A program made the translations under genes and the position numbers. From a virus (taxonomy: Duplodnaviria > Caudoviricetes): a stretch of DNA of 62,649 bases. Numbering within the stretch: position 1 is the first letter of the stretch; every line of letters begins with the position of its first letter. Below, piece after piece: positions 4,695 through 59,880 of this stretch. The notes below the pieces were generated by a model. That model ran no database searches. It was given only the letters and a program-made list of their open reading frames with translations, and had not been told where the DNA came from. The stretch covers positions 1 through 62,649 of IMG/VR virus record IMGVR_UViG_3300034101_000324. The stretch is one strand, 5' to 3'.

Positions 4695-5704
4695 GCTGCT
4701 ACCCCGCTCTCTAGTTTGTATTCTTTCTGGATCTCGCCCTTCTCACGATTGCCAACGAAACACGAACGCACGAACGTCTGAGTTCCCTTGGACAATTTAC
4801 GTAGGTGCGCCCTTCTGAAGTGATACCTCGGGGTATCGCGCTCGCCACCGGATCGACTACCCAACGTCTCTCTGACTGTGCCATATGGCAGTCTCAACAC
4901 GTGGTATTCAAACCCGCCAACGCCCTTCTTCTGGAACGTCCTGTTGCGTGTATAGGACTTCTCCTCACGCTCCTCCAACACAGCACCGACACGCAGTGCG
5001 TGACAGGCTCGGACTACTGTTTCCATGTTTGCGTGCAAAGATCTAAATATCGTCTCTACAAAGTTTCTATCTTTAGTTGGTTGACTATCGTTATCAAACA
5101 GTCCTTCTTTCGTATAGATATTACTTAAGCCAAGTTCTGTGCCGTTATTGTTAAACACAATCGGCGTATACATAGTCATGTAATAACTATTAAGACACCA
5201 CCTTACCCCATTGGTATTCTTCTTAAACCTAGAGAACGCGATTACAGAAACAGGGCTTCTGCCGGGGAGTCGTTCGTCTTTGTACCTTTCATCATCTTCA
5301 TCAAACTGCTTGAAGTCCACAGCCAAACTGACGCTTGCATCTGGAATCTCAAATTCATCTAGGTTGTCAGCGTCGTAATAGTTTTTATCCACGGCGTGTT
5401 CAAACGTAGTCAATATATGTGGCAAAGCGTGAGAAGACTCACACTCTTCCGGTGTATATCTGCTACTGGATGAAGGTACATATACTTGGCCGTTCAATGG
5501 CAGCACAATGTGTACTGCATTGCGTACCATCTCTGCCGTGTTTTTAAACGCTTCAGCCTTGGCAAATTCTTCCTTGTATATGGGATTGTCCTCACCCCAT
5601 CGTTTAAGTGCAGCATTTGCAGAGTAGCGCCATTGATCTTCCTGTACTTTCAAGTCATGCACTAACTCTGCGGCGTACTGTGGCAGGTAGTCTTTCTCTG
5701 TCAT
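4691..5704 (-). CDS. Hypothetical phage protein with C-terminal HxRRxHxR motif
   Basis: PRYHFRRAHLR...FVRSCFVG. Confidence 0.75.
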   Translation of the reverse strand: MTEKDYLPQYAAELVHDLKVQEDQWRYSANAALKRWGEDNPIYKEEFAKAEAFKNTAEMVRNAVHIVLPLNGQVYVPSSSSRYTPEECESSHALPHILTTFEHAVDKNYYDADNLDEFEIPDASVSLAVDFKQFDEDDERYKDERLPGRSPVSVIAFSRFKKNTNGVRWCLNSYYMTMYTPIVFNNNGTELGLSNIYTKEGLFDNDSQPTKDRNFVETIFRSLHANMETVVRACHALRVGAVLEEREEKSYTRNRTFQKKGVGGFEYHVLRLPYGTVRETLGSRSGGERDTPRYHFRRAHLRKLSKGTQTFVRSCFVGNREKGEIQKEYKLESGVAA

Positions 5705-6967: not shown

Positions 6968-6984
6968 TCCTGACAATGTCAGGA
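6968..6984. promoter_or_regulatory. 17-bp palindrome, copy 1 (TCCTGACAATGTCAGGA)
   Basis: Contains the stop of 6979-7428 and the SD of the next gene. Confidence 0.9.
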
Positions 6985-7428
6985 CTGTGGTTGTCCCTTG
7001 ATAGTCAGAAAGACTTCCATTGATAGAGTTATTGCGTATCTGTTCCTCACTCTCCACCCGATCTCTCGCAGTATCTCGGGGCAATAGTTCTTGTACGTCC
7101 ATAGGATTTCCTCGTAGTCCTCTGTCGTGTGGTGCATCCAAGGCTTCATCGTCACAGGGGGTTGCCCATTGCCTAGCGTGTTTGATCGGTGTAACTCGTC
7201 CCAGTCAAAACTGTTAATGAAACCAAGGGCTGTCTTGATCTCATCAGGCAATGTCTCGTCTGTGAAACGCCTCTTCATACCCTGTCCCATATACAACTCA
7301 TACACATCGCCGTTGTGTTCACACAGCACACGTATACGGTTGTCCTTCAAGTTCAACGGCTCCATGACCGCATCACTTCGACAGGATGTAGAGCGGAGTC
7401 CTACCGATTCGGTAGTGCTGTAGGCCAA
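6979..7428 (-). CDS. Hypothetical protein (true start may be ATG 7365)
   Basis: ORF in the early operon; its stop lies within the palindrome. Confidence 0.7.
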   Translation of the reverse strand: MAYSTTESVGLRSTSCRSDAVMEPLNLKDNRIRVLCEHNGDVYELYMGQGMKRRFTDETLPDEIKTALGFINSFDWDELHRSNTLGNGQPPVTMKPWMHHTTEDYEEILWTYKNYCPEILREIGWRVRNRYAITLSMEVFLTIKGQPQS

Positions 7429-8401
7429 TCGCTTCGATGCTCTCCCAGTATCTCGGCTCGCTCACGTCGGGCATATCTGCTTGTGTATTGGTGTGCGCCT
7501 TGAGCATGGTCAGAGCAATGTTCAGTTCAGAGGAAATGTCGTCGGGTATGTCGTTCATAGTCTTGTATCGCTTGAATGGCACGACAGGTACGCCGTAATT
7601 GAATTCAGTCTCTGATGGCATACTGCCTGTCTTGCGATAGGTGTCTATTGCTACTTGAATAGCATGGTAAGAGACCGCGCCAAGTGTCACCCCGCCAAGG
7701 GAGTTCGGGATGAGTAGCCACTTGTCCGTAGTAAAGTACGCAGCGACACGATCCATTATGTCGTTAAACTTCCGTACCTCTCCCATGTGATCAAGGTATA
7801 CACCACGCAGACGTTGAGCCTGCGCTGGCGGGATCTCGTATTTGTCCTCGCTGAATTGCGCCAAGATCAATTCGGTAATAAGTTCCCGATCCACACTTGC
7901 CTCGGGTTTAGCCATCGCTTGCCATCCACCGGCAAAGTTTTCGAGCATCAGGGAAAGCACACTGCGAAATATGTCGCTAGGTGCGGTCTGTGCCCTACGT
8001 AGGTCACTCATCAGCGATGCCTTTGCATCATGCCTAGAATCAGGACGCAAGTTATTAGCCAGATATCGCGGATTGACACTCTCCATACGGTTTGAATAGT
8101 GATATGTAGTAGTGGCGTCCATACCAACTAAGAAATTATCCGCCGACATGAATCTGTATTCATCGCCAACACCATTCTTGACGATGGCGCAAACACTAAA
8201 GCCCCCGTCAGTCATCATGTGAATGAGTTTCTCACCTCCGTTATGAAACGCACCAACCTTGGCCTTTCGCTCAGTAGTTGCATACGCAGCCAGAACAACC
8301 GGCCACATCTCTGACTTGATAACTGCTGTTCGCTCTGCCGGATCAACCGTGTCCAAGAACACATCGTTGACATCGACTTGAATCTTTACTCGCTTAGCCA
8401 T
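7373..8401 (-). CDS. Hypothetical protein
   Basis: 342-aa ORF with AAGGAGG SD. Confidence 0.85.
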   Translation of the reverse strand: MAKRVKIQVDVNDVFLDTVDPAERTAVIKSEMWPVVLAAYATTERKAKVGAFHNGGEKLIHMMTDGGFSVCAIVKNGVGDEYRFMSADNFLVGMDATTTYHYSNRMESVNPRYLANNLRPDSRHDAKASLMSDLRRAQTAPSDIFRSVLSLMLENFAGGWQAMAKPEASVDRELITELILAQFSEDKYEIPPAQAQRLRGVYLDHMGEVRKFNDIMDRVAAYFTTDKWLLIPNSLGGVTLGAVSYHAIQVAIDTYRKTGSMPSETEFNYGVPVVPFKRYKTMNDIPDDISSELNIALTMLKAHTNTQADMPDVSEPRYWESIEAIGLQHYRIGRTPLYILSK

Positions 8402-8429
8402 GACTTATGCCTCCTTAGTTTTATCGACT

Positions 8430-8446
8430 TCCTGACATTGTCAGGA
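8430..8446. promoter_or_regulatory. 17-bp palindrome, copy 2 (TCCTGACATTGTCAGGA)
   Basis: Abuts the stop codon at 8447. Confidence 0.9.
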
Positions 8447-9706
8447 TTATTCTTTGACCATCACCTTGCGACCATGCGGCGGGGTGAACCCACGGCTCTG
8501 CGTTACAAGCCACAGCGTCGGGCAAGCAACGTCCCACTTAACATTCGGCTCCACGTGGCCGTCCGTGAACACGATCACACCGTCTGCATCAATGTGTCGC
8601 TCGTTCATGTACTCGCTCACACAAGAGACGCGAGTGCCGCCACCACCCACAGGCTTGAGCAACGTGGCGATGTTGGCGTAGTTCTCAATCTCAAACCGCT
8701 GCTCTGCGTGAACGCGAGTGTCCCACCACAGCACGATGACCGACTCTGGTGGATACAACTCACACAGGTTGGAGATACGCGCTGCAACGCGGGCGATCTG
8801 CTTATCGTCGATGCTGCCTGACGTGTCGATGGCAAACACCATGCGACCCACCGTCTCGCTGTACGGGGACGGCAGATACAAGTCATCAGCCAAGCGGCGA
8901 CGATTCAGACGCGAGTACGTGTACTCGTCCACGCCACGCATGACGCCAGACCAGAAGTCATCAAGCACATCAGACCATGCGATCTCCGGCTCCATCTGAT
9001 CCTTGATTACGCGAGGGATGTCTACACCAAACTTCCCTGCCAAGAGGCCGCCCTGCTGCAAGCCTTCGTTGATCTTGCGCTCCAGTTCGCGCTGCTGATC
9101 TGGCGTGAGTTTGTTACCACCCTTGCCATCCTTGCCGTCCTGACCCTCGTAGTCGTGCTTGTCGAGCGGCTGACCACGCTGCTGCGTACCCTTGTTACCC
9201 GACTTCTTGGGCAGACCCGGATCGCTCGGCTGATTTTTCGGCTGCTTCTCACGCTCCTGCCAGAGATAGTCAAAGACTTGTCTCACCGACCAGTCATGGA
9301 ACATCGGATCATACAGACCACCGTCCGGCAACTTGGCTAGTGTCTTGTCCTTGAGATTCATGATCACATCGTTGACCACGAAATCCATCGCTACGTTGGC
9401 TAACATCGGATCCTTTGACGCCAAGTCCTTGTGACGTGGGATATGCTTGAGCAACTTGTGCAGATTCTCATGCAGCACAAGGCCACACGTCTCTTCAAGT
9501 GTCAGGCCATTCAAAAACTCCCTGCCGTAGTACGTGTTCAGCCCATCGGTACAGGCCGTAGGTATGTTGTCATCTCCATCGACGATCTTGGTATCGCCTA
9601 GAAGAATGATGCCCGAATACAGGCACGTCTCGGGATGACGCATCAATCGGATGTGCGCCTTCTTCAACTTCAACTCTGCATCCATAACTTGAACTGCTGC
9701 GTTCAT
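8447..9706 (-). CDS. Metallopeptidase (DUF2201-like) + vWA domain protein
   Basis: TACTDG, HENLH (HExxH), MIDAS IDTSGSI, GGGGT, VFTDG. Confidence 0.9.
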   Translation of the reverse strand: MNAAVQVMDAELKLKKAHIRLMRHPETCLYSGIILLGDTKIVDGDDNIPTACTDGLNTYYGREFLNGLTLEETCGLVLHENLHKLLKHIPRHKDLASKDPMLANVAMDFVVNDVIMNLKDKTLAKLPDGGLYDPMFHDWSVRQVFDYLWQEREKQPKNQPSDPGLPKKSGNKGTQQRGQPLDKHDYEGQDGKDGKGGNKLTPDQQRELERKINEGLQQGGLLAGKFGVDIPRVIKDQMEPEIAWSDVLDDFWSGVMRGVDEYTYSRLNRRRLADDLYLPSPYSETVGRMVFAIDTSGSIDDKQIARVAARISNLCELYPPESVIVLWWDTRVHAEQRFEIENYANIATLLKPVGGGGTRVSCVSEYMNERHIDADGVIVFTDGHVEPNVKWDVACPTLWLVTQSRGFTPPHGRKVMVKE

Positions 9707-9882
9707 ATCACTAACTCCTCTTGCTTAACATCCACAGTAATACCCATTTCCTTGATGCGCTTCAGATGCCCAATGTCAAACGTCATCCGTCCCATCAGGT
9801 TGGCAAACTGCTGCGCCAGTAGATTCACGGGATAGAATCGCACCGTCCCGTATAAGTTTTTCTGTTCAACTACCATTTCCAT
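9703..9882 (-). CDS. 59-aa hypothetical protein (not in ORF track)
   Basis: GGAGGTG SD; MEMVVEQKNLYGTVRFYPVN...; coupled to the next gene. Confidence 0.7.
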   Translation of the reverse strand: MEMVVEQKNLYGTVRFYPVNLLAQQFANLMGRMTFDIGHLKRIKEMGITVDVKQEELVI

Positions 9883-9894
9883 GACTCACCTCCG

Positions 9895-10986
9895 TTAGAT
9901 CAACAACTCATAGTTGGACTTCGCCCAGTCCTTGATCTCGTTATTCTTGATAGCCAACTTGCTCACCCGCTTGGACTGCAAGGCCATCGTGAAGAACACG
10001 CTCTGCACCTCTGCGCTGTTAATGCGCTTAACGAACTTCATGAACGCTGCGAGATCGTCCTGCGTATCGATAGTGTCGATTGCATTGAACATCATCATGA
10101 ACAACGCTGCGGGTTTCTCTGGAATCCTGACGTTGTCAGGATCAGCAATAACATTCTTAATCGCTACCAACTCACCCGACAGAGACATGACTGCCGTCAT
10201 CAACTCAGCCGCAGCCGCACCGATAGTACCGGCGAGTGATGCCTGTGTGAGATTGACACCCAACCGCTCACGTTTGGTCACGATGTTGTGACACTTGGCG
10301 AGACTGCGCGGCGAGACGAACGACAACGCCTTGCGATTCGGATTGAAGATGTACGGATTGTCTTCCTGCCCACCGTCCAAGTAACTCGCAAGCATCCGTG
10401 GGTGCATCGCCACACAAGCACGAATCTCGGCAGCGATGTTGTTATCAGACGCCCATGCGTTCCACTCGGTAGCATTCGGCTTACGCAAGTTATAGATGGT
10501 GACGCGATTACCTGCGTGCGCCAACATACTGTCACCCACACCGTCGCTTGCATTGTTACTTGTTGCAAAGATGATTGAGCCAGGATGTGTCTTGTCCAGA
10601 TCCTTGTCACCCACGCAATGCTCAAGCATCAAGCGAGTCCACATTGTCTGGAGCAACTTCGGAGTCTTCATAAACTCGTCGAGCATGATGACCTTCGGCT
10701 TCGGGCTGTCGAGCATGAACAAGTCAGAGACGATCTGTAGTAACTTCGTCCTGTCATTGTCAGGAACACTCATCGCCGTGTCGCCAATGTCTTTAACAGG
10801 ACAGTCCACGTAGATGTAGTCGTACCCATCACCTAGTTCAGCCTTAAGAGCCTTGAGCAATGTCGACTTGCCGCAGCCCGGCTCGCCCTTGATGACAGCG
10901 GTGTTAGTCGTACCCAATTCCAAGATGGCGGTCATCGCCTCTTTCAATGAGATGGGGTTGTTGAATTCGATTGTGTTAGTAGCCAT
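9895..10986 (-). CDS. MoxR/CbbQ-like AAA+ ATPase
   Basis: Walker A GEPGCGKS, Walker B IMLDEF, ATSN sensor, SPRS. Confidence 0.88.
   Translation of the reverse strand: MATNTIEFNNPISLKEAMTAILELGTTNTAVIKGEPGCGKSTLLKALKAELGDGYDYIYVDCPVKDIGDTAMSVPDNDRTKLLQIVSDLFMLDSPKPKVIMLDEFMKTPKLLQTMWTRLMLEHCVGDKDLDKTHPGSIIFATSNNASDGVGDSMLAHAGNRVTIYNLRKPNATEWNAWASDNNIAAEIRACVAMHPRMLASYLDGGQEDNPYIFNPNRKALSFVSPRSLAKCHNIVTKRERLGVNLTQASLAGTIGAAAAELMTAVMSLSGELVAIKNVIADPDNVRIPEKPAALFMMMFNAIDTIDTQDDLAAFMKFVKRINSAEVQSVFFTMALQSKRVSKLAIKNNEIKDWAKSNYELLI
10125..10141. promoter_or_regulatory. 17-bp palindrome, copy 3, intragenic (TCCTGACGTTGTCAGGA)
   Basis: Exact arms; read as PDNVR in the ATPase. Confidence 0.85.
10749..10765. 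promoter_or_regulatory. Palindrome variant, 1 mismatch (TCCTGTCATTGTCAGGA)
   Basis: Intragenic; read as PDNDR. Confidence 0.65.
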
Positions 10987-11013
10987 GACTTTGCTTTACC
11001 TCTGTTGTTGAAA

Positions 11014-11916
11014 TTACAGACCAAACTTCGACAGGATGTCGTCCACGCCTTCCTTCACAACGGTACGCTTGGTATCGCTGTTACGCAGTTGGTCGATGGT
11101 GACTCCGTCCAATACTCGTAGCAGATCACGCCGCGCATCCTCCAAGCGCGTGTCGTTAGTCAGGTTGAACTCGGCAAACGTGTTGCATAACTCCATCGCG
11201 TCAGTCAGCGTCGACTCGTACATCTTGCGCCGCTTGACCTTGATCTCACCGTCCTCCATGACCGTCTCGCTGTCGCAGCAATGTGAGAACGACTGCAATA
11301 CCTTGATCAACTGATCCTGCTGCTTGCTGTGAATCTCGTTGATGATGTCGCGTGTCTGCTGCTCGAAGTTGTTACGCAAGTCATCGGCCAGATCGTTGGC
11401 GATAGTCACTCGGTAGTCGCCCTCTGGGATGTTCATTGTCTGGATGATGACTTTGAATCTGCTCCTGACCTCGTCAGGAGTCGGGTAATCGTCCTTGTTG
11501 AACATATCGCCCTGCACGAACGCCTCGTTGCTGATCGCGCTTGGCATGACGGTAATAAACTTCTCTAGTAACTCTTCAGATCGCGCCTTGCGATCTTGGA
11601 TCTCGCCCATGACTGGAGCGATGCGCGGCGTGGGCAGATAGCCCCACTCGCCGTCCCACGGATAGGTAATACGTTGTACAAAGTTGTACCAAGTCTGCCT
11701 GTCGTTCAGGAGTGCGCGCAATTCGGGTACGTCGGCAAAGAGTTGCTTGGTGTATCTCCCTGCGTTGCGAGCGGCCTTCTTGTTGGCCGTGACCTCATCG
11801 CTGATGTCACGATCCTGCTTCGTCGCAGTCCAGACCTTGACCTTGGCGCGGAGCAAGATACCGCCCGTTGCCAGCGATGTGATGTGTTCGGGTTGCTTTA
11901 ACAAATTAGATTCCAT
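11014..11916 (-). CDS. DUF3150-like protein
   Basis: YLPTPRI...YPTPDEVRSRF pattern; typical position upstream of AAA and vWA genes. Confidence 0.65.
   Translation of the reverse strand: MESNLLKQPEHITSLATGGILLRAKVKVWTATKQDRDISDEVTANKKAARNAGRYTKQLFADVPELRALLNDRQTWYNFVQRITYPWDGEWGYLPTPRIAPVMGEIQDRKARSEELLEKFITVMPSAISNEAFVQGDMFNKDDYPTPDEVRSRFKVIIQTMNIPEGDYRVTIANDLADDLRNNFEQQTRDIINEIHSKQQDQLIKVLQSFSHCCDSETVMEDGEIKVKRRKMYESTLTDAMELCNTFAEFNLTNDTRLEDARRDLLRVLDGVTIDQLRNSDTKRTVVKEGVDDILSKFGL
11463..11479. promoter_or_regulatory. 17-bp palindrome, copy 4, intragenic (TCCTGACCTCGTCAGGA)
   Basis: Exact arms; read as PDEVR. Confidence 0.8.
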
Positions 11917-11938
11917 GACAGTCTCCGTTAGTAAGTTG

Positions 11939-11955
11939 TCCTGACAATGTCAGGA
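11939..11955. promoter_or_regulatory. 17-bp palindrome, copy 5 (TCCTGACAATGTCAGGA)
   Basis: Lies between the promoter at 11979-12007 and the SD of the DUF3150 gene. Confidence 0.9.
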
Positions 11956-11978
11956 GTGAATTCCCACTCTACATACAT

Positions 11979-12007
11979 ATTATAACATAAGTTGCTATTT
12001 AAGTCAA
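11979..12007 (-). promoter_or_regulatory. sigma70 promoter PE3
   Basis: TTGACT-N17-TATAAT with TGn extended -10. Confidence 0.9.
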
Positions 12008-12011
12008 CAGT

Positions 12012-12296
12012 TCAAGCAAACAAAAAGAACAACACCGCACCCGTAAGTGCGGTAACGAACCCATAGGCAAAGCCTAGTTTGAACACCTTCTTACCGAACT
12101 TGACCGCAGCCTCGTCAATCTCGGGCTTGATGCTGTTGGTGAATTCCTCCACCACCTCGTCCATTAACTCACGCTTGATCGCTGCACGCATCGACTGCTC
12201 ACGCAACAGGCGTAACTCTTCCTCGTCACGCTGTTGATCCGCGTGCCACTGGGCTTGATCGTCGGTAAACCATTCTTCGTCTCTTGTTTTAGCCAT
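12012..12296 (-). CDS. Hypothetical protein with C-terminal TM helix
   Basis: AAGGAGGTG SD; hydrophobic C-terminus. Confidence 0.75.
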   Translation of the reverse strand: MAKTRDEEWFTDDQAQWHADQQRDEEELRLLREQSMRAAIKRELMDEVVEEFTNSIKPEIDEAAVKFGKKVFKLGFAYGFVTALTGAVLFFLFA

Positions 12297-12297
12297 G

Positions 12298-12426
12298 TCA
12301 CACCTCCTTAATCGTCCACTTGATTCGCGGGTTCATACGCTTGCGCCCCGTCCAATACGGCACAGCCCACTCGGTATCTGTCTCCACACAAATCAGCCGC
12401 TTGCCCAAATACACTTCCATCCTCAT
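12298..12426 (-). CDS. 42-aa hypothetical protein (not in ORF track)
   Basis: MRMEVYLGKRLICVETDTEWAVPYW...; ATGA overlap with the upstream gene. Confidence 0.6.
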   Translation of the reverse strand: MRMEVYLGKRLICVETDTEWAVPYWTGRKRMNPRIKWTIKEV

Positions 12427-12644
12427 CGGTAAAACCCTCCCTTGTTGTTGATACCTTTCAAGTCCTCAAGGTTAGTCACCTTGATGTAGTTGCTCTTGTG
12501 CATCGGCACGACCGTATGTTTGACCTGACGGGCATACTCCTGCCCGCAAGGTAGGCACGAACCGAATCCCGCCATGACCCTGCGTGGATCAACTGGGGTG
12601 TACATACCTTTGGTCACGCACGCTCGGCAAAAATAGGTACTCAT
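12423..12644 (-). CDS. Small zinc-ribbon protein (start revised to ATG 12644)
   Basis: GGAGG SD; CRAC...CLPC. Confidence 0.75.
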   Translation of the reverse strand: MSTYFCRACVTKGMYTPVDPRRVMAGFGSCLPCGQEYARQVKHTVVPMHKSNYIKVTNLEDLKGINNKGGFYR

Positions 12645-12655
12645 CCAAGCCTCCT

Positions 12656-12672
12656 TCCTGACGCTGTCAGGA
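12656..12672. promoter_or_regulatory. 17-bp palindrome, copy 6 (TCCTGACGCTGTCAGGA)
   Basis: Directly abuts the SD of 12644. Confidence 0.9.
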
Positions 12673-12789
12673 CTATCGTTGATACAACTAAACACCCACG
12701 CGACCTCGGGGTTACCAAGGCCGCTAGGCTGCTCACTCGCTCATCGCGGCTCACAACTTTGTAGGCAGATACTCGGAGCTACACGACAG

Positions 12790-12806
12790 TCCTGACGTTG
12801 TCAGGA
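12790..12806. promoter_or_regulatory. 17-bp palindrome, copy 7 (TCCTGACGTTGTCAGGA)
   Basis: Exact arms, extended by a flanking G/C pair. Confidence 0.9.
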
Positions 12807-13217
12807 CAAGTTATGGTTCACACTCCTACCGCTGCCGGACATACATTGCCTGTCCGTACCGGCTATGGATCGCGGGTCTAGCCTTTCGCCGCTCTGACCG
12901 TACTCTGCACTTCACCTACGGTTTTACACTCCGCACAGGACTATCCGTGTCCTTACCGCTTGGCTTCGCAGTCGCCCATCCGTCACCGCCCCACCTCGCT
13001 CGTAATAAATACGGTCAACATGGGATTGATATGGCTGACAGAATTTACAGGCCGCAAACTACTCAACGACTTGTCACCTAGGCGATCCTATGTGCAGTCT
13101 CGTACTGCACCACGACCCCGATTGATACTCGGAGCACCGCTGTTTGTCAGACAGCGTCACGGCTCTGCCACCGCGCCTTCACCTACTATCGGCTTACGAC
13201 TTGTAGGATCGTTGTTG

Positions 13218-13234
13218 TCCTGACACCGTCAGGA
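13218..13234. promoter_or_regulatory. 17-bp palindrome, copy 8 (TCCTGACACCGTCAGGA)
   Basis: About 40 nt downstream of the PE2 start. Confidence 0.9.
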
Positions 13235-13279
13235 CTCGTGGAACCCGCCTCGTTTGGCGAAATTTCCACTATAGACTAT

Positions 13280-13308
13280 ATTATAACAAATGTAGTCTTT
13301 TAAGTCAA
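13280..13308 (-). promoter_or_regulatory. sigma70 promoter PE2
   Basis: TTGACT-N17-TATAAT with TGn; shares TTGACTTAAA...TGTTATAATAT with PE3. Confidence 0.9.
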
Positions 13309-13368
13309 GTAATAAGCAAATTATTTTGTCTGGGCACGATGGACTGGGGGTGCGTGGTTTATACGTTG

Positions 13369-13385
13369 TCCTGACAATGTCAGGA
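13369..13385. promoter_or_regulatory. 17-bp palindrome, copy 9 (TCCTGACAATGTCAGGA)
   Basis: About 60 nt upstream of the PE2 -35 element. Confidence 0.9.
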
Positions 13386-13414
13386 AATGCGCGGTTTTTC
13401 GGCAGCGTACACGC

Positions 13415-13826
13415 TAAGTGCTTGATTAGGTTAGGGATAATTGGAAAGTGGTAATATGTTGTACGCTTTGTACGCAAAATGAAAGTTGTAATAACGTACA
13501 AGATTTTGGGTTTTGAGGCAGAGGAGTGGTTCTGTAAGTTATTGATTTTATTATTATTATTATTATTTATTTATAAGAAGAAGAGGTAAAAAGAGGAGTT
13601 TGTACGCTTGTACGCTGTTTTTTGAGGGAGGACGGCCGGTAAAAAATTTTCCAAGTTTTTTAAAAAATTTTGCGCTTGCCGAAGAAGACAAACTGGCTCC
13701 TCCGTCCCCTAGGTGCGAACAAGCGTACAAGCGTACAAATCGACACTTTTCCCTTTAAGATCAAAGGCTTGGCTTGTTCCCGTCAACTTAAGTGTGAGTA
13801 CAAGCCAAAAATGTAAGTCATTGATT
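13415..13826. promoter_or_regulatory. Three IHF consensus sites (13415-13427, 13535-13547, 13814-13826)
   Basis: TAAGTGCTTGATT, TAAGTTATTGATT and TAAGTCATTGATT each match the reverse complement of WATCAANNNNTTR. Confidence 0.7.
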
Positions 13827-13856
13827 TTTAAGGAAACGCGAAAAATTTTGTACGCT
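13459..13856. repeat. TTGTACGC iterons with an 18-bp inverted repeat (13599-13616 / 13722-13739) and an AT-rich (TTA)n tract
   Basis: Tandem pairs at 13459/13468 and 13600/13608, inverted pair at 13723/13731, single copy near 13848. Confidence 0.8.
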
Positions 13857-13938
13857 ATTGCAACTTTCAAAGTGCAACTTAGCGCATGGGCTAGGGCTAG
13901 AAAACTGGTATCGCGTCATCTAAGCAAACCGATTCTGA

Positions 13939-13955
13939 TCCTGACACTGTCAGGA
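13939..13955. promoter_or_regulatory. 17-bp palindrome, copy 10 (TCCTGACACTGTCAGGA)
   Basis: Exact arms; non-coding region. Confidence 0.9.
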
Positions 13956-14165
13956 AGCAGGCGAGTCTTGGCGTGGGCTAAGCAAACCGATTCTGATGTC
14001 GTCAAACTTTGGGTCACGCACAAGAAGAGCGGTGTAGACGCATGGCCTGTAACTTGTACATGGGCTAGGGCTAAGGCTTTGGGCTCGGGCTTAGGCTTGG
14101 CCTAGCAAGAACTGGTCTCATATAGAACTGGTATCCGTGGAACTGGCTTCGCGGAGCGCAGACGC

Positions 14166-14200
14166 AAAAAAGCCCCGCCAAGCATGAGCCTGACGGGGCT
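14166..14200 (-). terminator. Intrinsic terminator of the PE1 transcript
   Basis: AGCCCCGUCAGGC-UCAU-GCUUGGCGGGGCU followed by a U run. Confidence 0.85.
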
Positions 14201-14204
14201 GTGG

Positions 14205-14243
14205 TTAGAACGGGAATTCCAACTGTTCGGGTTCAGCGCACAT
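14205..14243 (-). CDS. 12-aa micropeptide MCAEPEQLEFPF
   Basis: GGAGG SD 5 nt before ATG; lies between the first early gene and its terminator. Confidence 0.5.
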   Translation of the reverse strand: MCAEPEQLEFPF

Positions 14244-14296
14244 GGCAACCTCCGTTGAAGTTATAGATGAGGGGCGGCTCGCGCCGCCCCCCGTAG

Positions 14297-14313
14297 TCCT
14301 GACAGTGTCAGGA
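14297..14313. promoter_or_regulatory. 17-bp palindrome, copy 11 (TCCTGACAGTGTCAGGA)
   Basis: Supplies the TGA stop of 14308-15135. Confidence 0.9.
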
Positions 14314-15135
14314 ACCCGCCCGATCAGCCGCCGCGATGATTTCATCGGCCAGAGCAGGATCAAACGCCGCCTCCAACATGATGGAACAAAGTGCCGTCCA
14401 TTGACCCTCAGACACCACCGAATCGTCGCCGTTGTCCTTGGCATATCGCGCGCGCTTCTTGGTTCCCGCCTTGTGCAGACCGTTGAGCAGATCGGCGAAA
14501 TCCTGTTTCGCACCACCCGCACGACCCGACGCATCGGCTTTCCAACCGCGAGACAACGCCTGATCAACATCATTGTTGATCCAGTCGCGCATACCCTGAC
14601 CCTTGCCATCCGGCCGCTCACCAACCGCCGTGCCGCGCATCCAAGCCTTGACACCGTTCGGCTTTTCAGCAACCGACGCGAGAGTCTTGAGATCGACGCC
14701 TAGCGCGAATGCCGCCGTGAAAGTGTGATTCACAGGCAAAGCAGACTCGACCGGTGTCCACTTTTTAGCCAGGCGAGACCACACGCGAACCGGCAGATAC
14801 TTGTCGTCGTCGCCCACCTTGTGCACCTCGACCGAATAGTGCGCGCGAGTCTTGGCCGAATCGGTAGCCATGGTCTTGAGCACCGCGTGCAACGCCTTAC
14901 CGATTTCGGACTCACGATCGAACCGCTCGACCCCGTCGCGCTTGATCACCGGAACACCCGCCGCGAGGCAGAGCGCCGCGAAATCAGACTGAAACGACTC
15001 GGTGTCGACCGACGTAGAAATCTGAACGTCGATAGCCTTGACCGCGACCGCCTCAGCCTTGGCGAGAATATCGGCAGCCATTGACGGGTTGACCGACTTC
15101 GAGACCGCGACAGCAACTTTGTTTGACTTAGCCAT
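14308..15135 (-). CDS. First early gene, 275-aa hypothetical protein (start revised to ATG 15135)
   Basis: GGAG SD; has its own promoter and terminator; GC-rich codons. Confidence 0.8.
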   Translation of the reverse strand: MAKSNKVAVAVSKSVNPSMAADILAKAEAVAVKAIDVQISTSVDTESFQSDFAALCLAAGVPVIKRDGVERFDRESEIGKALHAVLKTMATDSAKTRAHYSVEVHKVGDDDKYLPVRVWSRLAKKWTPVESALPVNHTFTAAFALGVDLKTLASVAEKPNGVKAWMRGTAVGERPDGKGQGMRDWINNDVDQALSRGWKADASGRAGGAKQDFADLLNGLHKAGTKKRARYAKDNGDDSVVSEGQWTALCSIMLEAAFDPALADEIIAAADRAGS

Positions 15136-15164
15136 GATATGTATAACTCCACTAGATGATGTAT

Positions 15165-15181
15165 TCCTGACATTGTCAGGA
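15165..15181. promoter_or_regulatory. 17-bp palindrome, copy 12 (TCCTGACATTGTCAGGA)
   Basis: Lies between PE1 and the SD. Confidence 0.9.
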
Positions 15182-46664: not shown

Positions 46665-49600
46665 ATGCCGGTTTACAAAATCCGTGGACCGGACGGTAAA
46701 CTTTATAGATACCGAGTAGACGCCCAAGATGTTGACCAAGAAGACGTATTAAAGTCTTTTAATCAACAGTTTTCTATTCGGTCTGCGCTTAGTGCTTTTG
46801 AACCCCCCAAGGAACAGGCGGGGTTTATTGGCTCGTTTAAGGATGCCGTTACTTCTCTTGGTCTGGCTGATGAAGCAGCGGCTTATGCTGCCAATCCTAC
46901 GGAAGAAAATCGCCAAGAGTTCCTTAAGAAAGCCGAGTCCAAGTACAAGTCCGTTGGCGGATTTGGTAAGGGCGATAACTGGGAAGCCTTTAAGGAACTG
47001 CTCGGTGGTTCACTCGGTGCGCTCGTTGCTCCTATCGTAGGTGGTGTAGCCGGTGCTGCTGCTGGCCCACTCGGTGGTATTGCTGGCTTCGCTGGTACAA
47101 GTGCTAGTCAATACAGTATCGCTAATCTCCGCCGTCAGGCTGAGCAACAACAAGCCGCTGCTGAAGCGGGTGAAGTTGTACCTGAATTGTCTCTGGGCAA
47201 AGCCGCCGCTGCATCGCTGGCACAAGCAGGACTTGATGTTGTCCCCGGTGCATTGATCTTAAAGGGTTTGAGTAAGTTCCCTGTCGCTCAGCGTTTGCTT
47301 ACCAAAGACGAGACATCAAGCAAAGCCGCACAGGTTCTTATTGATGCTTTTAATAAGGGCAACCTTTCTCTCAAGGGCAACGTAGTTAAGGGCGTGGGTC
47401 TTGGCGTTGCATTTGAAGTCCCGCAAGAAATTGCTCAGCAAGCCTTGGAGCGTTGGCAGGCAGGCTTGCCGTTGGATGACGATGAGGCCAAGGAAGAGTT
47501 CAAACAGGCTGCGATTGGTGCAGCACTCCTTGGTGGCGGATTTGGCGCGATTGGTGGGGCTGCTACGTATCGCGGAGAGCAGGCAGAAAAAGCCAGAGCA
47601 GCAGAAGCAGAGGCTGCTTCACGGCAAGAGGAAGAAATTGCGCCTCCTCCACCTCCGCCTATCACTTCTGAAGAACCGGTTACAACTGAAGATCCCGCGT
47701 TTCAACTGCAAGAACAACTGGCAGGGCTTGACCAACTACGTCAGCAAATAGACGAGGAAAGGCGGCAAGCCGAAGAAAGGCAGCAAGCTGAACAAATAGC
47801 ACAGCCCGAGCGTCGTCAATACAGTGCCCAGACGTTGCGTGAAGCAGCCGAGGCAGAGGCTCTTGCACCGCGTGATGAAGACGAACCTCCTCTATACACG
47901 CCTCCTACACGGGACGAAGAAGAACGAGTAATCCCCACTCCGTCTCGTACACCGGAGGAAGAGGCTGAATTAACTGAAGACATGTTTGCTGACGCTCGTG
48001 AATACGATGCGGAACGCGCTGCTACTGCGGGGGTCATGGAAGGTCTGGGTGCGCCCACGGAGGGTGGCATCCCTGCGGAGATGTTTGAGGTTCCGGCTGT
48101 TACTCCTGTTGAGCCAGCCACGCCTGCTCCGCGCGAGATTGCGCTTGAAGTTATCAAAACGACCCCGACTATCAAGGCTGTTGCTGAAGCAACAGGACTT
48201 AACCAACCCCAAGCCGCTGCATTGATGCGGCAATTTGTTGACGAGGGGCTGCTTGAACGAAAAGGAAGCAAGTTTAAGTTCGTTACTCCCGAACTTACCG
48301 CTCAGCCGGAGGCTACCGATGTATCAGGCGCAACAGTTACTACTACAGAGACTGACGGTGGAGCAGGTCGAGGAAGCCCTGACCTGTTTACATTGGGACC
48401 GCCAGCCGGAGAACTCGGTGCTCCGCCAACTAGAGGCGCAGGACTGGCTGCTACTGGCGACGTTACTGAACGGGTTGATGACCGAGAAAGAGATGTATCC
48501 CCTACACTAGAGGCTGACCTTGAGGGTCTTGGCCTTGAAGGGTTTGGTGCGCCTACCGATACCGGTTTGCCTCCTCGTAAACTTGAGGGCTACCTTGCTG
48601 AAAGGCAGAAAGTCCGCGATCTTAAAGATCGTGCCGTTGCTTTCATCCGCGAGACTGGTAAGGGTTCAGCCACGGAACTTCAAGCGGCGCTTAGTATCCC
48701 GCTCAGTCAGGCCAAGTCGTTGCGTAGTGCGCTCCTTGGTAGCGGTCAGGTAGTACAGAAAACCAACGTCAAGGCTGCAAAAACTGCCGGTCGCAGTTAC
48801 TTCGTCGTTGAAGGGGATTACACACCATCTGGTCAATTTGCTCCCCGCGAGGCGGCTGTAACTGAAACACGCCGAGAGCCTGTTGCAGAGACGGGTCTTG
48901 AAGAACTTGGTCTTGAGGGCGCACCCGCCGAGGCTGGTCTACCGCCCCAGATGCTTGATAGTTACTTCGCTGAACAACGTCTTGAAGAGGCACGGCAGCG
49001 TGCCACAGGTAGATTGCTTGGCGAAGGCACTGTATCTGAGACCGAACGTATTCAGCGTGAGGCAGATAAGGCTGCTGAACTTGCTCCTGAACCTAAACTT
49101 AAGCCGACTTGGAAAGGTACGCCAAAAGAAGTTTTGGCCGAAGAAACTCGCCGTGCATTTGCCGATCTTGAAGCAGCGCAGGCAGCGGCCAAGAGAAAGC
49201 CGGAAGCAGCAGGGCAGCAAGGTCTTGATCTTGTGGGTGGCAAGGGCCGTCCCACGCTCAGCGATGCAGAGAAGCGCATTGTTGCAGACATAAAGTCGGC
49301 GGCAGAATTTCTTGTTCAGACAGGAAAAATGTCTGTTGATCAAGTTGATAAATTCAATGCCGAAATGCGTAAGCCTGCCCCTGATGTAGGCAAGTTACGG
49401 AAGATGGTTGATGACATATCAACCAAAGAGACAGACATTGAAGTTGAAGAACAGCAGGATCTTGATGAGTCAGGATTCATCATCTCTGAAAACTTCAAAG
49501 AAGACGCTGATAACTCAAGTGCGCTTAGTGATGAGCGCGGTGCGGGAGAAACAGGACGGCCACGAGCAGGGCGTCCGCTAGACTTTAACGAGCAGATTAT

Positions 49601-52600
49601 TTACTTCCGCAACAAGGCGCTCAATAGGTTCAAGAAGCGTAAGAGTCTGACGAAGGGATTAAAGGCTGACACTGTCAGGTCGTTGATTGGCAAGTTCACG
49701 GCTGGCTGGAAGAATCCGCCCAACTTTATTGTTGTGCAGTCGCACCTTGATCTGCCGCAAGAACTTGATTCCGAGACTAACGAAGACAGTATGGGTTTGG
49801 CGAGTGGTAATGATGTTTACATCATTGCAGACAACATCGGTCTGCCGTCTGATCTGAAGGCTGTGGTATTCCACGAATCACTCGGTCACTACGGTCTTGA
49901 GCAGTTGTTTGGGGAGAGACTTCTCCAGACTATGCTGGATATCTACAACACGAACAATCGTGTTCGTGCCGATGCCGATGCGTGGCTTGAAGAGAACCCG
50001 AACGTATATCCGGAGAGCGAGTTCACACAGGATGAGCGCAGAGCGGCGGCAGCGGAAGAAGTCTTTGCCGAGATGTCAGAAGGTGGCCCGATTGCCAACT
50101 CGCAGTATCGCGCTGCGTTCAACCGTGTTGCTGCCCTGATTCGTAAGTTCGCCCGTGCCTTGAGCCAACTGGTTGGCCGAGACGTTGCTTACAGCAACCG
50201 CGAAATCCAAGACATCATCACGCAGGCTCACAACAAGGTTATCAGCGGAAAGACCCGCTTTGTACCGCGTTACAACAACATCCGGTACATGAAGAAGTGG
50301 TACAACCGCACGCTGACTAATGCAATGGGGCAAGCCCAGAACGCACCGGAAGCAACCCGAGAGATACTAACTGGCACGGTCGACTCGCTCAGTAATGTGC
50401 CTAACTCGTTGCGTAACGCGAAGCTGGCTACGTTCTCAATGCACCATATGATGCAGTTATTTGAGAAGTACGCACCGGCTTTCCGTGCCCTGAACAACTT
50501 GGTCGAAAGAAAAGCCTACGACTCCACAAGAGAGATGGTGGAGTTCACCAAGCAGGCAAGTAAGTACCGAGAGGTTCTGCGTAACAACAGTCAGTTCGTG
50601 GATGAGTTCAACAAGATCGCGCACCTAATTAACCTGTCTCAGGCTCCGGTGCTTGAGGAACAGTTGAACGCGAACGGAGACTTTGAGCGTTTCGTCCCGA
50701 ACGTAGCAGCGCAGCGGATGCGTAATATCCCTGCGAATAGCGCGGCGTATAGCGCCCTGACACCTGATGAGAAAGTTCTGCACGAAGCAGTCAATCGGTT
50801 CTATGCGTTGCCGACTGATGTTCAGCAGGTAATTGCTGACATATACACCGATTACAGGAACTACAGCGACAATGCGTTCAAGATTAAACTGACGCAGTTG
50901 ATGAACAGGCTCCCTGCCAACATCATTGCAGGCATTAAGGCCAACTTCCAGAACAACCGGTTGAAGTTCTATCTGCCCCTGCCACGCGAGGGTATGTACA
51001 AACTTGTCTATTTGGATAACAACGGCACGCGAGTCAGTCAGTTGTTTGACAGTATGGCTGGGCGGGATAACGCCGAGAGGCAGGTGCGTGCTCAAGGCAT
51101 GACTGTCCTTGATGAACCCAAGGTGCTGCGCCAGAGAAATTATGGCGACTCTAATTTGCCGCCGGGATTGCTCAAGGAACTTCTTGAGAACGTGCAGGAC
51201 TCCCTGACTAGAGCCGGTGTAGCCACTGCCGATATTGAGAACGCCAAAGAGACGGTGTTTGATACGTTCGTCGAGTTCATGCCGGGTGCTTACGGCAACG
51301 ATCTGCGCCAAGAAATAAGCTCGCGTAAGACTTTCATGCTCAACAATACGATGTATTACGGACGCCTTGGTTACGATGAAGATGTCATGGCTGCGTATGA
51401 GAAGCGCATTCCGGGCATCATTTATCAAATCAACAATCTTAAGTACACGATGCCCTTTGAGAAGGTCAGGAAACTAATCAAGGAGCAGTTGAACACGTAT
51501 CGCGCCAACAAGGGCGCACCTGCTTATGCAGGGTTGCCGGATCTAGATGATCCGTACCTTGAGTCGCTGCGTGAGGACTTGGATTCTCGAGTCACGTTTG
51601 CCAAGAAGTTGCAGCAATACTCGCCGTACGTTTACACCATCTCCAAGGCTAACTACATCTACAGTATTGCGCTGAACATCTCTTCAGCCCTGATTAACAC
51701 GACCATTCTTCCCATGATGGCGTGGCCGACACTCGCCGCCAAGTATGGCCCTGTTAATGCTTCGCGTGCCGTGGGGCAGGCAATTCAGTTGTTCTTCAAG
51801 CACTCGTACCGCGATCCGCAAACCGGTAGGTTGAGCTTTGACTACAAGCGTTTGGCCGATATGCCCGCCTCGTTTGGTGGCGACAATATGCCTGCTGCTT
51901 ACGCGCAGACGGCGCACGGACGTGAGTTCAATCGCTTCTTCCGTACGTTGTTGGCTAGATCTGTAGTGGGAACTGCTGCTGAACAAGAACTGATTCAGGC
52001 AGAGAACATTACTGTTCCGGGCTATGAGGGATTGAGTGCCAAGGTGAACTTGGCAATGAGCTACGTGTTCCGTAGTTCAGAGCGTATGAACCGTGAAGTC
52101 ACGGCGCTCGCTGCCTATATGCTGGCTCGTAACATCGACGTAGATGGGCAGGCATTTGATCCAAACAGGCAGGGGGTAAGTGTAGGCAAAGCATCGGAAG
52201 AGGCGATTCGTCTTAACTACGATGTCAACGGAGCCACCACGCCTGAGACGAACAGCCGGTTGTACCAGACGGACATTGGTCGTATCGCTCTTACGTTCAG
52301 AACTCACGCTCTGAACATGATCTTGAACCTTGCCTTCTCGTTCAATCAGGCGATTGAGACTATTAATGCGGGTCAGCCGAACGAAGCCGAACGTAGATTA
52401 GTGCGCTCTGTCGCACGCAAGAAATTGCTGTACATCTTTGGCTCTACGTATATGTTGGCAGGCATCAAGGGTCTGCCCCTCTTTGGCGCTGCCGAAGTAC
52501 TTGCATCTCTCATAATGGGCGATGACGACGAACCGTATGATCTTGAACAAATGGTGTTGGATTCAGTAGGCACGTTGGGATTGAACGGCCCGGTCAACGA

Positions 52601-53273: not shown

Positions 53274-53482
53274 GCTACGCGCCAAACCCTCACGCCAAGG
53301 TGTCCATCCTTGGACATGGTAAAGGCTTTCACCTTGATACCATAAACCTTGGCGCGAGAGTCGACGACGTAAATCAAAGCCGCAGGTCTAACCGTAGGGA
53401 TGAAGAATGAATCCCCGACCTCCATGCCTTGAAATGGGAAGATCCATTCAGGCTCCGTGAGACTTTGATTTTGATTCTGCAA
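53270..53482 (-). CDS. Small putative DNA-binding protein
   Basis: FPFQGMEVGDSFFIP...GVRVWRV. Confidence 0.7.
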   Translation of the reverse strand: MQNQNQSLTEPEWIFPFQGMEVGDSFFIPTVRPAALIYVVDSRAKVYGIKVKAFTMSKDGHLGVRVWRVA

Positions 53483-56297: not shown

Positions 56298-56311
56298 ACG
56301 CGCCTACAGAT

Positions 56312-56340
56312 AAAAAAGGCGGGGCGACGGCCACCCCGCC
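56312..56340 (-). terminator. Terminator-like hairpin immediately upstream of the primase-helicase
   Basis: GGCGGGGUGG-CCG-UCGCCCCGCC followed by U6. Confidence 0.7.
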
Positions 56341-56364
56341 AAACAAAGAATCGAGACCGTTAGA

Positions 56365-56673
56365 TCAAATCGATTCTCCTACCATGCTTGAGAGGTACAT
56401 CCTCGCATCAATAGCACTTTTGGCAGGGAGAGTACCTGCCTCCATGTCCTTACCGACGAGATTGATGAACGCTTCCACAGTCCTACGGTTGGACTCTCGG
56501 ATGTACTGCCCACGAAACCATTCGTAAACAGTTGTCTTCGATACCTTCAGTACCTTGGCAACGTACAAAGCCGGGAGATTGGCATCGACACACAACCTAC
56601 CCAGTTGAACGCCCAAGCGCGTAGGATCAGCGTCTCTAAGTTCCAGAAGAAACTTCTGACCGTAAGACCGCAT
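56365..56673 (-). CDS. XRE/Cro-like HTH protein
   Basis: PALYVAKVLKVSKTTVYEWFRG. Confidence 0.8.
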   Translation of the reverse strand: MRSYGQKFLLELRDADPTRLGVQLGRLCVDANLPALYVAKVLKVSKTTVYEWFRGQYIRESNRRTVEAFINLVGKDMEAGTLPAKSAIDARMYLSSMVGESI

Positions 56674-56682
56674 AACGACTCC

Positions 56683-57537: not shown

Positions 57538-57540
57538 GGG

Positions 57541-59531: not shown

Positions 59532-59539
59532 AACTAAAC

Positions 59540-59710: not shown

Positions 59711-59880
59711 ATTTACTCCAAAAAGCCCGTCACGTGGGCCAGACGGTTAACGCTCAAGGTGGAGGCTGTACTGATTTAGGTAGTACGCTTGGGCTTGCCG
59801 TTAACTGACGTGGTTTGCGGTGTCATGGATGGGTAGTCCGCCGCAGGTCGCCCTTACTCTCACACTCACGCCTTATGGAG

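What the first reader, a model, noticed from the sequence alone, without database searches (positions are those of the whole stretch)
12673..13273. About 600-nt ORF-free, highly structured RNA from a consensus early promoter, punctuated by three palindromes
Seen: PE2 points leftward, but the first SD and ATG are about 630 nt away (12644), which is very unusual in this dense genome. The interval has two 8-bp long-range helices, each closing about 110 nt (13204-13211 with 13083-13090; 13010-13017 with 12895-12902). Local hairpins occur at 13092-13110, 13116-13134, 13138-13156, 12937-12953, 12834-12863 and 12700-12724. G-U wobbles in the 13116 and 12700 stems work only on the - strand. Palindromes at 13218, 12790 and 12656 delimit blocks of about 410 and 117 nt. 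Inference: a large phage ncRNA (ROOL/GOLLD/OLE size class, though I cannot assign a family), a decoy or antitoxin-like RNA, or an antitermination leader, with the palindromes controlling or processing it.
Basis: partly seen in the sequence, partly recalled or inferred. Interest (0 to 1): 0.85.

Follow-up and report, generated by a model that had tools for sequence, protein, structure and literature searches.

The report
New large structured phage leader RNA
The gene-free 600 bases behind this phage's early promoter encode a large, intricately folded RNA that recurs in related lake-water phages and matches no catalogued RNA family, so it looks like a new class of big viral RNA whose job is still unknown.

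Summary
The observation mostly holds, and the main interpretation is supported. Window 13211-12686 (- strand) is a conserved structured RNA of about 525 nt. It starts about 60 nt downstream of a near-consensus sigma-70 promoter (13308-13280) and ends about 40 nt before the first early gene (ATG 12644).

Homologues:
- They occur in 25 other viral contigs and 12 metagenome contigs.
- They are absent from 20 of the 22 closest relatives found through a neighbouring protein.
- None was found in the bacterial and archaeal genome collection or in GenBank phages.
- Nothing in Rfam 15 matches.

Covariation on sequence-only alignments is strong. In the 5' domain, 99.1% of cells pair and 16 of 31 pairs show double changes. 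In the 3' domain, 97.7% of cells pair and 16 of 33 pairs show double changes. In both, 0 of 500 shuffles reach the observed values.

The RNA has a conserved 5' domain, an exchangeable central domain (three types) and a conserved 3' domain.

Its two 8-bp long-range helices are at chance level and are not conserved. Its three palindromes are copies of a lineage-specific repeat (14 in the window) that sits at peripheral positions of the fold.

Function is unknown. My best guess is an accessory RNA that acts as RNA early in infection. A cis-acting leader is the main rival.

The parts
13280..13308 (-). Sigma-70-type early promoter: -35 TTGACT, 17-nt spacer with TG, -10 TATAAT. Predicted start near 13273.
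   Evidence: 11 of 12 matches. The same promoter is conserved in relatives with and without the RNA.
13238..13269 (-). 5'-terminal hairpin of the transcript. It is lineage-specific and not part of the conserved RNA.
   Evidence: MFE fold. L016 and L031 carry different sequences at this position that can also pair, judged by eye.
13218..13234 (.). Copy of the lineage palindrome TCCTGAC-N3-GTCAGGA, just upstream of the conserved RNA.
   Evidence: Other lineages have their own palindrome at the same relative place.
13065..13211 (-). Conserved 5' domain. It holds helices 13206-13197/13191-13183, 13175-13170/13163-13158, 13156-13138, 13134-13116 and 13110-13092, then the invariant GACAAGUCG.
   Evidence: Alignment A2 of 21 distinct sequences. 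31 pairs, 16 with changes on both sides; 99.1% of cells paired against 85.1% in shuffles; 0 of 500 shuffles reach this. nhmmer E = 1e-34.
12868..13064 (-). Central domain, type A. One of three exchangeable centre types. Includes the 5' strand (13055-13046) of a long-range helix to 12763-12753.
   Evidence: Metagenome contigs L050 and L052 are 98% identical to the window over their best BLAST segment, yet carry centre type C.
12807..12867 (-). 3' domain, first part. Hairpin 12855-12837, invariant GGCAG (12836-12832), and the 5' strand of the covarying helix 12826-12822/12779-12775.
   Evidence: Alignment A3 of 25 distinct sequences.
12790..12806 (.). Palindrome copy at the tip of the hairpin closed by helix 12826-12822/12779-12775.
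   Evidence: In other lineages the same tip carries their own palindrome, or only a short loop (L056, L062).
12686..12789 (-). 3' domain, second part. Invariant CCGAGUAUCUGCCUA and GAGUGAGCAGCCUAGCGG, a variable-length covarying stem 12724-12700, and the invariant GCGUGGGUGUUUA end.
   Evidence: 9 of 19 pairs of the terminal helix have changes on both sides. nhmmer E = 3.3e-38.
12656..12672 (.). Palindrome copy directly upstream of the Shine-Dalgarno sequence of the first early gene.
12423..12644 (-). First early gene: 73 aa with CxxC...CxxC, no family match. It is not part of the RNA. In homologous loci the gene after the RNA varies.
   Evidence: Variation of the downstream gene.

Best explanation
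SHOWN
The interval encodes a member of an uncatalogued family of large structured RNAs, about 525 nt here and roughly 430-600 nt elsewhere.
- It is read on the - strand.
- It lies directly behind the promoter that heads the leftward early/replication arm.
- No intrinsic-terminator-like site was found between it and the first gene.
- It has a conserved 5' domain, an exchangeable central domain and a conserved 3' domain.
- It is an accessory cassette. In the window's lineage it sits between two copies of the lineage palindrome. The closest relatives have the same promoter and the same downstream gene with only a leader of about 100-150 nt.

INFERRED
- Host RNA polymerase makes it as the first product of infection.
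- It then acts as an RNA in its own right, in trans or as a scaffold, on a host or phage component.
- The conserved 5' and 3' domains would form the body. The swappable centre would carry specificity.
- It may remain part of the mRNA leader, or be trimmed from it.
For: FAMILY
- 25 other viral contigs carry it.
- 12 of 17 metagenome hits are real.

STRUCTURE
- Covariation was measured on MAFFT alignments that were not fitted to any structure.
- Slid controls fall to 25-57% of cells paired.
- G-U pairs are kept in all sequences, for example A2 columns 30-42 and 60-68. One-sided G-C/G-U/A-U changes fit RNA on this strand only.
- The window and its 98.5%-identical relative L007 differ in hairpin 13134-13116 by a compensated pair.
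- Many homologues show a pseudoknot-like pair of helices, both varying in step, judged by eye.

NON-CODING
- No conserved ORF.

ACCESSORY
- Only 2 of the 22 relatives found through ORF300 have it.
- In others the same slot holds small ORFs or an unrelated element of about 70 nt.

CENTRE EXCHANGE
- Among 30 full-length loci the centre is type A in 14, type B in 10 and type C in 6. Types A and C occur in both of two lineages that use different palindromes.

TRANSCRIPTION
- In one metatranscriptome run, contigs cover 12716-13268 with 2 mismatches each. They end 5 nt from the predicted start.
Against: - No experiment bears on function.
- In every locus the RNA lies at the 5' end of the operon. The terminator scan found no terminator-like site between it and the first gene. 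That placement is what a cis-acting leader would show.
- No protein partner co-occurs with it. The gene downstream varies. The upstream 275-aa gene tracks RNA presence only within the window's own lineage, which may be simple linkage.
- The RNA-library evidence is low-depth contigs. DNA carry-over is not excluded, and one such run also has a contig upstream of the promoter.
- The consensus structures came from RNAalifold on the same alignments, so part of their excess over the controls is built in.
Confidence: 0.5

Rival explanations
1. It is a cis-acting leader of the long leftward operon. The folded RNA would act on the polymerase or transcript that made it. Possible roles are processive antitermination, shielding a long untranslated stretch from Rho and RNases, or setting translation of the first cistron.
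For: - It always lies directly behind the promoter and ahead of the first gene, in the same orientation. The terminator scan found no terminator-like site between it and that gene.
- It heads an arm of - strand genes that continues, across the terminal repeat, into the replication genes at 53448-62551.
- The RNA strand is G-rich and C-poor: GC skew -0.226 on the + strand for 12001-13000. It is also tightly folded. From general knowledge, that is the opposite of a Rho loading site.
Against: - The closest relatives keep the same promoter, the same palindromes between genes and the same downstream genes, with only a C/A-rich leader of about 100-150 nt. The RNA is therefore not needed to read this operon.
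- About 525 nt with exchangeable centre types is far more than known leader antiterminators need (their size is recalled).
- The first gene after the RNA differs among loci, which argues against gene-specific control.
Confidence: 0.3
2. It is a self-processing or mobile RNA element, such as an unrecognised ribozyme or intron-like cassette. Its patchy distribution would reflect its own mobility.
For: - Presence and absence differ between near relatives, with sharp boundaries at repeated palindromes.
- Complex conserved fold with a pseudoknot-like core.
- The centre is exchanged between lineages.
Against: - No group I or II intron, RNase P or self-cleaving ribozyme model matches, even at E up to 10.
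- No gene is interrupted.
- No transposase, reverse transcriptase or homing endonuclease lies beside it.
- The boundaries can be explained by recombination at the palindromes that also bound ORF cassettes.
Confidence: 0.07
3. It serves replication. The transcript from this promoter would prime or activate the neighbouring origin-like region, for example through a persistent RNA-DNA hybrid favoured by the G-rich RNA.
For: - In all lineages the promoter abuts a region of about 900 bp with iterons, an AT-rich run and other repeats (13300-14170).
- The RNA strand is G-rich.
Against: - Transcription runs away from the iterons.
- Relatives without the RNA keep the promoter and the iterons.
- A densely base-paired RNA with covarying helices is not what a hybrid-forming primer needs.
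Confidence: 0.06
4. It has no function of its own. The apparent structure would be a by-product of the palindromes, of composition, or of a decayed gene.
For: - The palindromes add to the folding energy on both strands.
- The central 300-nt windows fold no better than shuffles.
Against: - Conservation of long unpaired motifs and compensated helices across about 35 loci whose flanks are unrelated.
- Strand asymmetry.
- No trace of a reading frame.
Confidence: 0.03

Closest known systems
ROOL and GOLLD RNAs (large ornate RNAs of phages and prophages)
   Same: - Size class of several hundred nucleotides.
- Carried by phages.
- Complex fold with pseudoknots.
- No known protein partner or function.
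- GOLLD also combines a conserved part with a less conserved part (PMC12286853; I read passages found with 'find').
   Different: - No match to either covariance model.
- Those RNAs are often near tRNA islands (same paper). This window has no tRNA gene.
- This RNA is the 5' leader of the early operon.
- Its variable part is a central cassette of discrete types.
- Multimer formation is untested.
Leader RNAs that make RNA polymerase termination-resistant (HK022 put, EAR of Bacillus eps operons). Recalled from general knowledge, not from a call.
   Same: Position directly behind a promoter at the head of a long operon. They act as folded RNA.
   Different: - Those elements are about 70-120 nt (recalled). 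This one is about 525 nt with three domains.
- Relatives with the same operon lack it.
- No sequence or model match.
Repressor 'stoperator' sites of mycobacteriophage L5 (recalled). This is an analogy for the palindromes only.
   Same: Many copies of one short site spread through the early region. They lie mostly between genes and just downstream of promoters. Specificity differs between related phages.
   Different: - L5 sites are asymmetric (recalled). These are perfect palindromes that would also form RNA hairpins.
- No binding protein is identified here.
- At least 4 of the 14 copies lie inside ORFs.
Candidate structured RNAs predicted from IMG/VR by Fremin, Bhatt and Kyrpides 2023 (PMC10690425; I read the abstract and section 2.1)
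   Same: Same data source, and the same kind of evidence (covariation in intergenic regions of viral contigs).
   Different: Their candidates are 29-151 nt, so at most single hairpins of this RNA could be among them. Their lists are in supplements that I could not open.

Membership tests
ROOL RNA | Match to the family's covariance model in Rfam | tested here: not met
   No match at gathering score over the whole window. None at E up to 10 in 12300-13700. None at E up to 1 in five homologous loci.
ROOL and GOLLD RNAs | Frequent location near tRNA genes in phages and prophages (PMC12286853, passages) | tested here: not met
   ARAGORN finds 0 tRNA or tmRNA genes in the 62,649-bp genome.
GOLLD RNA | Match to the family's covariance model in Rfam | tested here: not met
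   no match.
ROOL and GOLLD RNAs | Assembly into homo-oligomeric cages | not testable with these tools
   Needs native gels or cryo-EM of the transcript.
OLE, 6S, tmRNA, RNase P, group I and II introns, known riboswitch and self-cleaving ribozyme classes | Match to any of the 4227 Rfam 15 models | tested here: not met
   The only matches were chance-level ones: a 21-nt viral pseudoknot, preQ1, a snoRNA and miRNA precursors.
Processive antitermination leader RNA (put/EAR type) | Lies in the transcribed leader of a long operon | tested here: met
Processive antitermination leader RNA (put/EAR type) | Renders polymerase resistant to downstream terminators | not testable with these tools
   Needs in vitro or reporter read-through assays. 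Relatives lacking the RNA share the operon, which lowers the odds.
The new family proposed here | 5' and 3' domains both present, with the invariant motifs (GACAAGUCG; CCGAGUAUCUGCCUA; GAGCAGCC; GUGUUUA-type end) and the covarying helices | tested here: met
   Window 13221-13066 (E = 1e-34) and 12866-12687 (E = 3.3e-38) against profiles of alignments A2 and A3, which include the window itself. Helices kept.

The most novel reading that the evidence does not exclude
This would be a new class of large ornate phage RNA, made as the first product of infection. Its conserved 5' and 3' domains would form a fixed body. Its central domain would be exchanged between phages like a specificity cassette. 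That pattern would fit an RNA-only or RNA-scaffolded device for host takeover or counter-defence, under an arms race with the host. Like ROOL and GOLLD, it might be multimeric.
Probability: 0.35. Interest if true: 0.9.

Novelty: new variant of a known kind. Interest (0 to 1): 0.8.

Why it matters
Only a handful of bacterial and phage RNA classes longer than 400 nt are known, and most still lack a function.

This one has features that make it tractable:
- A defined promoter that E. coli-type polymerase should read.
- A fixed place at the start of the early transcript.
- Natural knock-outs, meaning sister phages without it.
- Natural domain swaps, meaning three centre types on the same body.

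These features allow direct tests of what a large phage RNA does.

The locus also shows short lineage-specific palindromes bounding the cassettes that differ between related phages, RNA and ORF alike. That bears on how phage mosaicism arises.

Tried and rejected
TOOL PROBLEMS AND SEARCHES THAT LED NOWHERE
Palindromes were counted by pattern instead.
- blastn against GenBank phages found nothing, with the window's 801 nt and with a consensus-like homologue.
- The two-motif pattern scan of 185,579 species' genomes gave 4 hits. All are chance matches: no other family motif and no profile hit.
- 5 of 17 metagenome hits (L040, L044, L048, L051, L053) and 1 of 23 viral hits (L075) were chance matches. 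They were dropped before alignment.
- Pfam and PHROGs gave nothing for the 73-aa, 94-aa, 275-aa and 300-aa neighbours.
- Literature searches found no description of this RNA.

RNA RUNS
- Runs X17-X20 hold only small shares of the stretch's words.
- X17 is probably DNA of a relative.
- Parts of the stretch without cover in RNA runs are not evidence of silence.

IDEAS DROPPED
- A CsrB-like sponge, a G-quadruplex, and a GAUAC/GUAUC tertiary pairing. I considered these by eye only, and nothing supported them.

NOT DONE
- I did not build a covariance model. The profile HMM search of all held loci answered the presence/absence question.

Full report
WHAT THE WINDOW IS

The window is a complete viral record of 62,649 bp with direct terminal repeats.
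- Genes on the - strand run from about 15,200 down to 1 and, across the repeat, from 62,551 down to 53,448. They include a family A DNA polymerase, an exonuclease, an SNF2 helicase and a DUF927 primase-helicase.
- The + strand from 15,555 to 53,273 holds the large terminase, the portal and a 2202-aa protein.
- None of the 20 proteins tested is an RNA polymerase or an integrase.
- There is no tRNA gene.
- The large terminase is about 50% identical to those of a few aquatic phages. No GenBank phage matches the region at the DNA level.
- DNA runs holding at least half of the stretch's sampled words are mostly labelled lake or other fresh water.

THE OBSERVATION

- The leader folds far better than shuffles on the - strand (z = -5.76) and less so on the + strand (z = -2.62).
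- In 300-nt windows the excess sits in the two ends (z = -6.7 and -5.3). The background of 81 windows has mean -0.62 and minimum -3.81. The middle is unremarkable.
- The two 8-bp long-range helices are exactly what chance gives: 2 observed outside the palindromes, 2.1 +/- 1.9 expected.

RELATIVES WITHOUT THE ELEMENT

I fetched 22 related loci through the 300-aa protein of 11014-11916.
- Two carry the element: L007 (98.5% identical DNA) and L016.
- The other 20 do not. Nine of these encode the same protein at 82-84% identity over its full length.
- Several of these (L008, L010, L011, L013, L014) have the same promoter and the same first gene about 100-150 nt apart, with one palindrome between.
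- The 600 nt are therefore a cassette bounded by two copies of the palindrome.
- In other relatives the slot holds small ORFs (L012, L016) or an unrelated element of about 70 nt whose stem changes in a compensated way (L012, L014, L015, L017).

RELATIVES WITH THE ELEMENT

Pattern scans with short conserved stretches found the element well beyond the window's lineage.
- An 18-mer from the 3' part hit 8 viral contigs. It also hit 17 metagenome contigs, of which 12 are real and 5 are chance.
- A two-motif pattern hit 24 viral contigs, all real.
- A 5'-domain 18-mer hit 23 viral stretches. Twenty-one were already known (one of them the 5' part of a known contig), one was new and real (L074) and one was chance (L075).
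- The two-motif pattern found nothing real in one genome for each of 185,579 bacterial and archaeal species.
- In the distant loci the whole 430-600 nt is homologous and gene-free, and it keeps the same position: iteron-rich and AT-rich region, then the RNA, then the first early gene. That gene varies among loci.

STRUCTURE

All alignments were made by MAFFT from sequence alone.

| Alignment | Sequences | Pairs | Pairs changed on both sides | Cells paired (shuffled) | Double-change cells (shuffled) | Shuffles reaching observed | Paired when partner slid |
|---|---|---|---|---|---|---|---|
| 5' domain (A2) | 21 distinct of 29 extracted | 31 | 16 | 99.1% (85.1%) | 92 (25.1) | 0 of 500 | 25-57% |
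| 3' domain (A3) | 25 distinct of 32 extracted | 33 | 16 | 97.7% (88.0%) | 77 (20.1) | 0 of 500 | 34-47% |
| Full length (A1) | 8 | 112 | 24 | 97.0% (91.4%) | 55 (18.5) | 0 of 500 | 34-45% |

- The full-length alignment also gives a long-range helix (window 13055-13046 with 12763-12753). It varies only by one-sided G-U/A-U/G-C changes.
- Caveat: the structures were predicted by RNAalifold on the same alignments. Part of the excess over the controls is therefore built in.
- An independent check exists.
- G-U pairs kept in every sequence, together with the strand asymmetry, point to RNA of the - strand rather than a DNA cruciform.
- In many homologues the stretch after the UAUCAA hairpin has two interleaved helices. 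Both change in step between lineages: GAGG/CCUC, GAGA/UCUC, GUGA/UCAC and GAGU/ACUC, crossing CGCG/CGCG, CGUG/CACG and AGCG/CGCU. That is a pseudoknot. I read this by eye. The window has only the second helix, as hairpin 13110-13092.

THE CENTRE

Among 30 full-length loci, duplicates included, the stretch between the two conserved domains falls into three types:
- Type A: 14 loci, including the window. L030 is type A only in part.
- Type B: 10 loci.
- Type C: 6 loci.

L050 and L052 are 98% identical to the window over their best BLAST segment, yet carry type C. Types A and C occur both in the window's lineage and in the lineage that uses a different palindrome. The centre is therefore exchanged, or kept polymorphic, on a constant body.

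THE PALINDROMES

TCCTGAC-N3-GTCAGGA occurs 14 times in the window against 0.19 expected. Thirteen copies lie in 6968-15181.
- Most lie between genes, often just upstream of an SD or 25-60 nt downstream of a promoter.
- At least four lie inside long ORFs: 10125, 10749, 11463 and 60370.
- Every lineage has its own palindrome at 5-12 copies per 6-15 kb locus. Examples are CGTATTA-N2-TAATACG, GCCATTA-N2-TAATGGC, CGTATCA-N2-TGATACG, GCCACTA-N2-TAGTGGC and TTCGACA-N2-TGTCGAA. Relatives that lack the RNA have them too.
- Within the RNA they sit before the 5' domain, at hairpin tips and after the 3' domain. These are places where an extra hairpin should not disturb the fold. Lineages without a palindrome at a given tip have a short loop there.
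- The copies share one sequence, rather than merely being able to pair. I therefore infer recognition by a lineage-specific protein. They also mark the junctions of the cassettes.
- I cannot tell whether the sites act on DNA (like operators) or on RNA (processing or protection).

TRANSCRIPTION

In one metatranscriptome run, two contigs cover 12716-13055 and 13037-13268 with 2 mismatches each. The second ends 5 nt from the predicted start. Two other RNA runs, one of them from a second study, have single contigs inside the element.

These are low-depth contigs. They give neither strand nor level, and DNA carry-over is possible. I count this only as a weak hint.

COMPARISON WITH WHAT IS KNOWN

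- Nothing in Rfam 15 matches, at gathering scores or at permissive E-values, in the window or in nine homologous or related loci.
- ROOL and GOLLD are the nearest kind: large, ornate, phage-borne, of unknown function, and GOLLD also has a less conserved half (PMC12286853, passages). They are often found near tRNA islands and have their own folds.
- The IMG/VR screen of Fremin et al. reports candidates of 29-151 nt (PMC10690425, abstract and section 2.1). Pieces of this RNA may be in its supplements, which I could not open.
- Three literature searches found no description of it.

VERDICT

This is a real, conserved, large structured RNA of a family not yet catalogued, placed as an accessory cassette at the head of the early transcript. 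Its function is unknown.
- I put an RNA acting in its own right at about 0.5. This rests on its accessory nature, its size, the exchangeable centre, and the variable early-gene slot it occupies.
- I put a cis-acting leader at about 0.3.
- The remainder is split between a ribozyme or mobile element, a replication role, and no function.

Noticed in passing
window 13300-14170: Gene-free, AT-rich region between the terminator of the 275-aa gene (14200-14171) and the early promoter. It holds iterons (GTACAAGCGTACAA-type, direct and inverted), an (ATA)n run, TTC repeats, CCAGTTC repeats and GCCCTAGCC-type repeats. It looks like a replication origin. The 300-nt window 13501-13800 has z = -7.73 on the - strand. 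The same layout occurs in all related lineages.
   Followed up: partly
L012:5283-5345, L014:3362-3430, L015:754-830, L017:5033-5110: In relatives without the large RNA, the same slot holds an element of about 70 nt (ATGACAC..GAGGTTTAC..GGGTTTCGTAG..). Its stem changes in a compensated way between loci. There is no Rfam match. It may be a second, small leader RNA.
   Followed up: partly
L012:5023-5281 and L016:5014-5250: Small ORFs (about 80 aa) occupy the same palindrome-bounded slot in two relatives. The slot therefore takes ORF cassettes and RNA cassettes alike.
   Followed up: no
window 6968-15181 and 60370; loci L023, L035, L054, L056, L069 and others: Each phage lineage has its own perfect palindrome at 5-12 copies in the early region, whether or not the RNA is present. 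The copies lie mostly between genes and directly before ribosome-binding sites, but some lie inside ORFs. No binding protein is identified.
   Followed up: partly
window 14205-14243 (- strand): A 12-codon ORF (MCAEPEQLEFPF) with a GGAGG site lies between the stop of the 275-aa gene and a strong terminator-like hairpin (14200-14171).
   Followed up: no
L054:4440-4520 region, also L055, L056, L062, L069 (upstream of their RNA): The distant lineages lack the window's consensus sigma-70 promoter. Instead they share a short inverted repeat (GGGAAC..TTCCC) followed by GTTTTG and GTCTAA(C/A)TATATAG-like sequence. This may be a different promoter type.
   Followed up: no
window 46665-53273 (+): A 2202-aa protein at the end of the structural module. 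Its last 520 residues or so match giant DarB-like antirestriction and virion proteins (PHROG 10089, E = 1e-48).
   Followed up: no
window 14308-15135 (-) and relatives: The 275-aa protein upstream is 79-100% identical in the relatives of the window's lineage that carry the RNA (L007, L016, L052). It is only 33-40% identical in those that lack it. The 300-aa protein downstream stays at 82-84% in both groups. This could be linkage or a functional tie.
   Followed up: partly
window 5251-5700 (- strand): Two overlapping 300-nt windows inside the early arm fold better than shuffles (z = -3.8 and -3.5). These are the lowest values in the background set.
   Followed up: no
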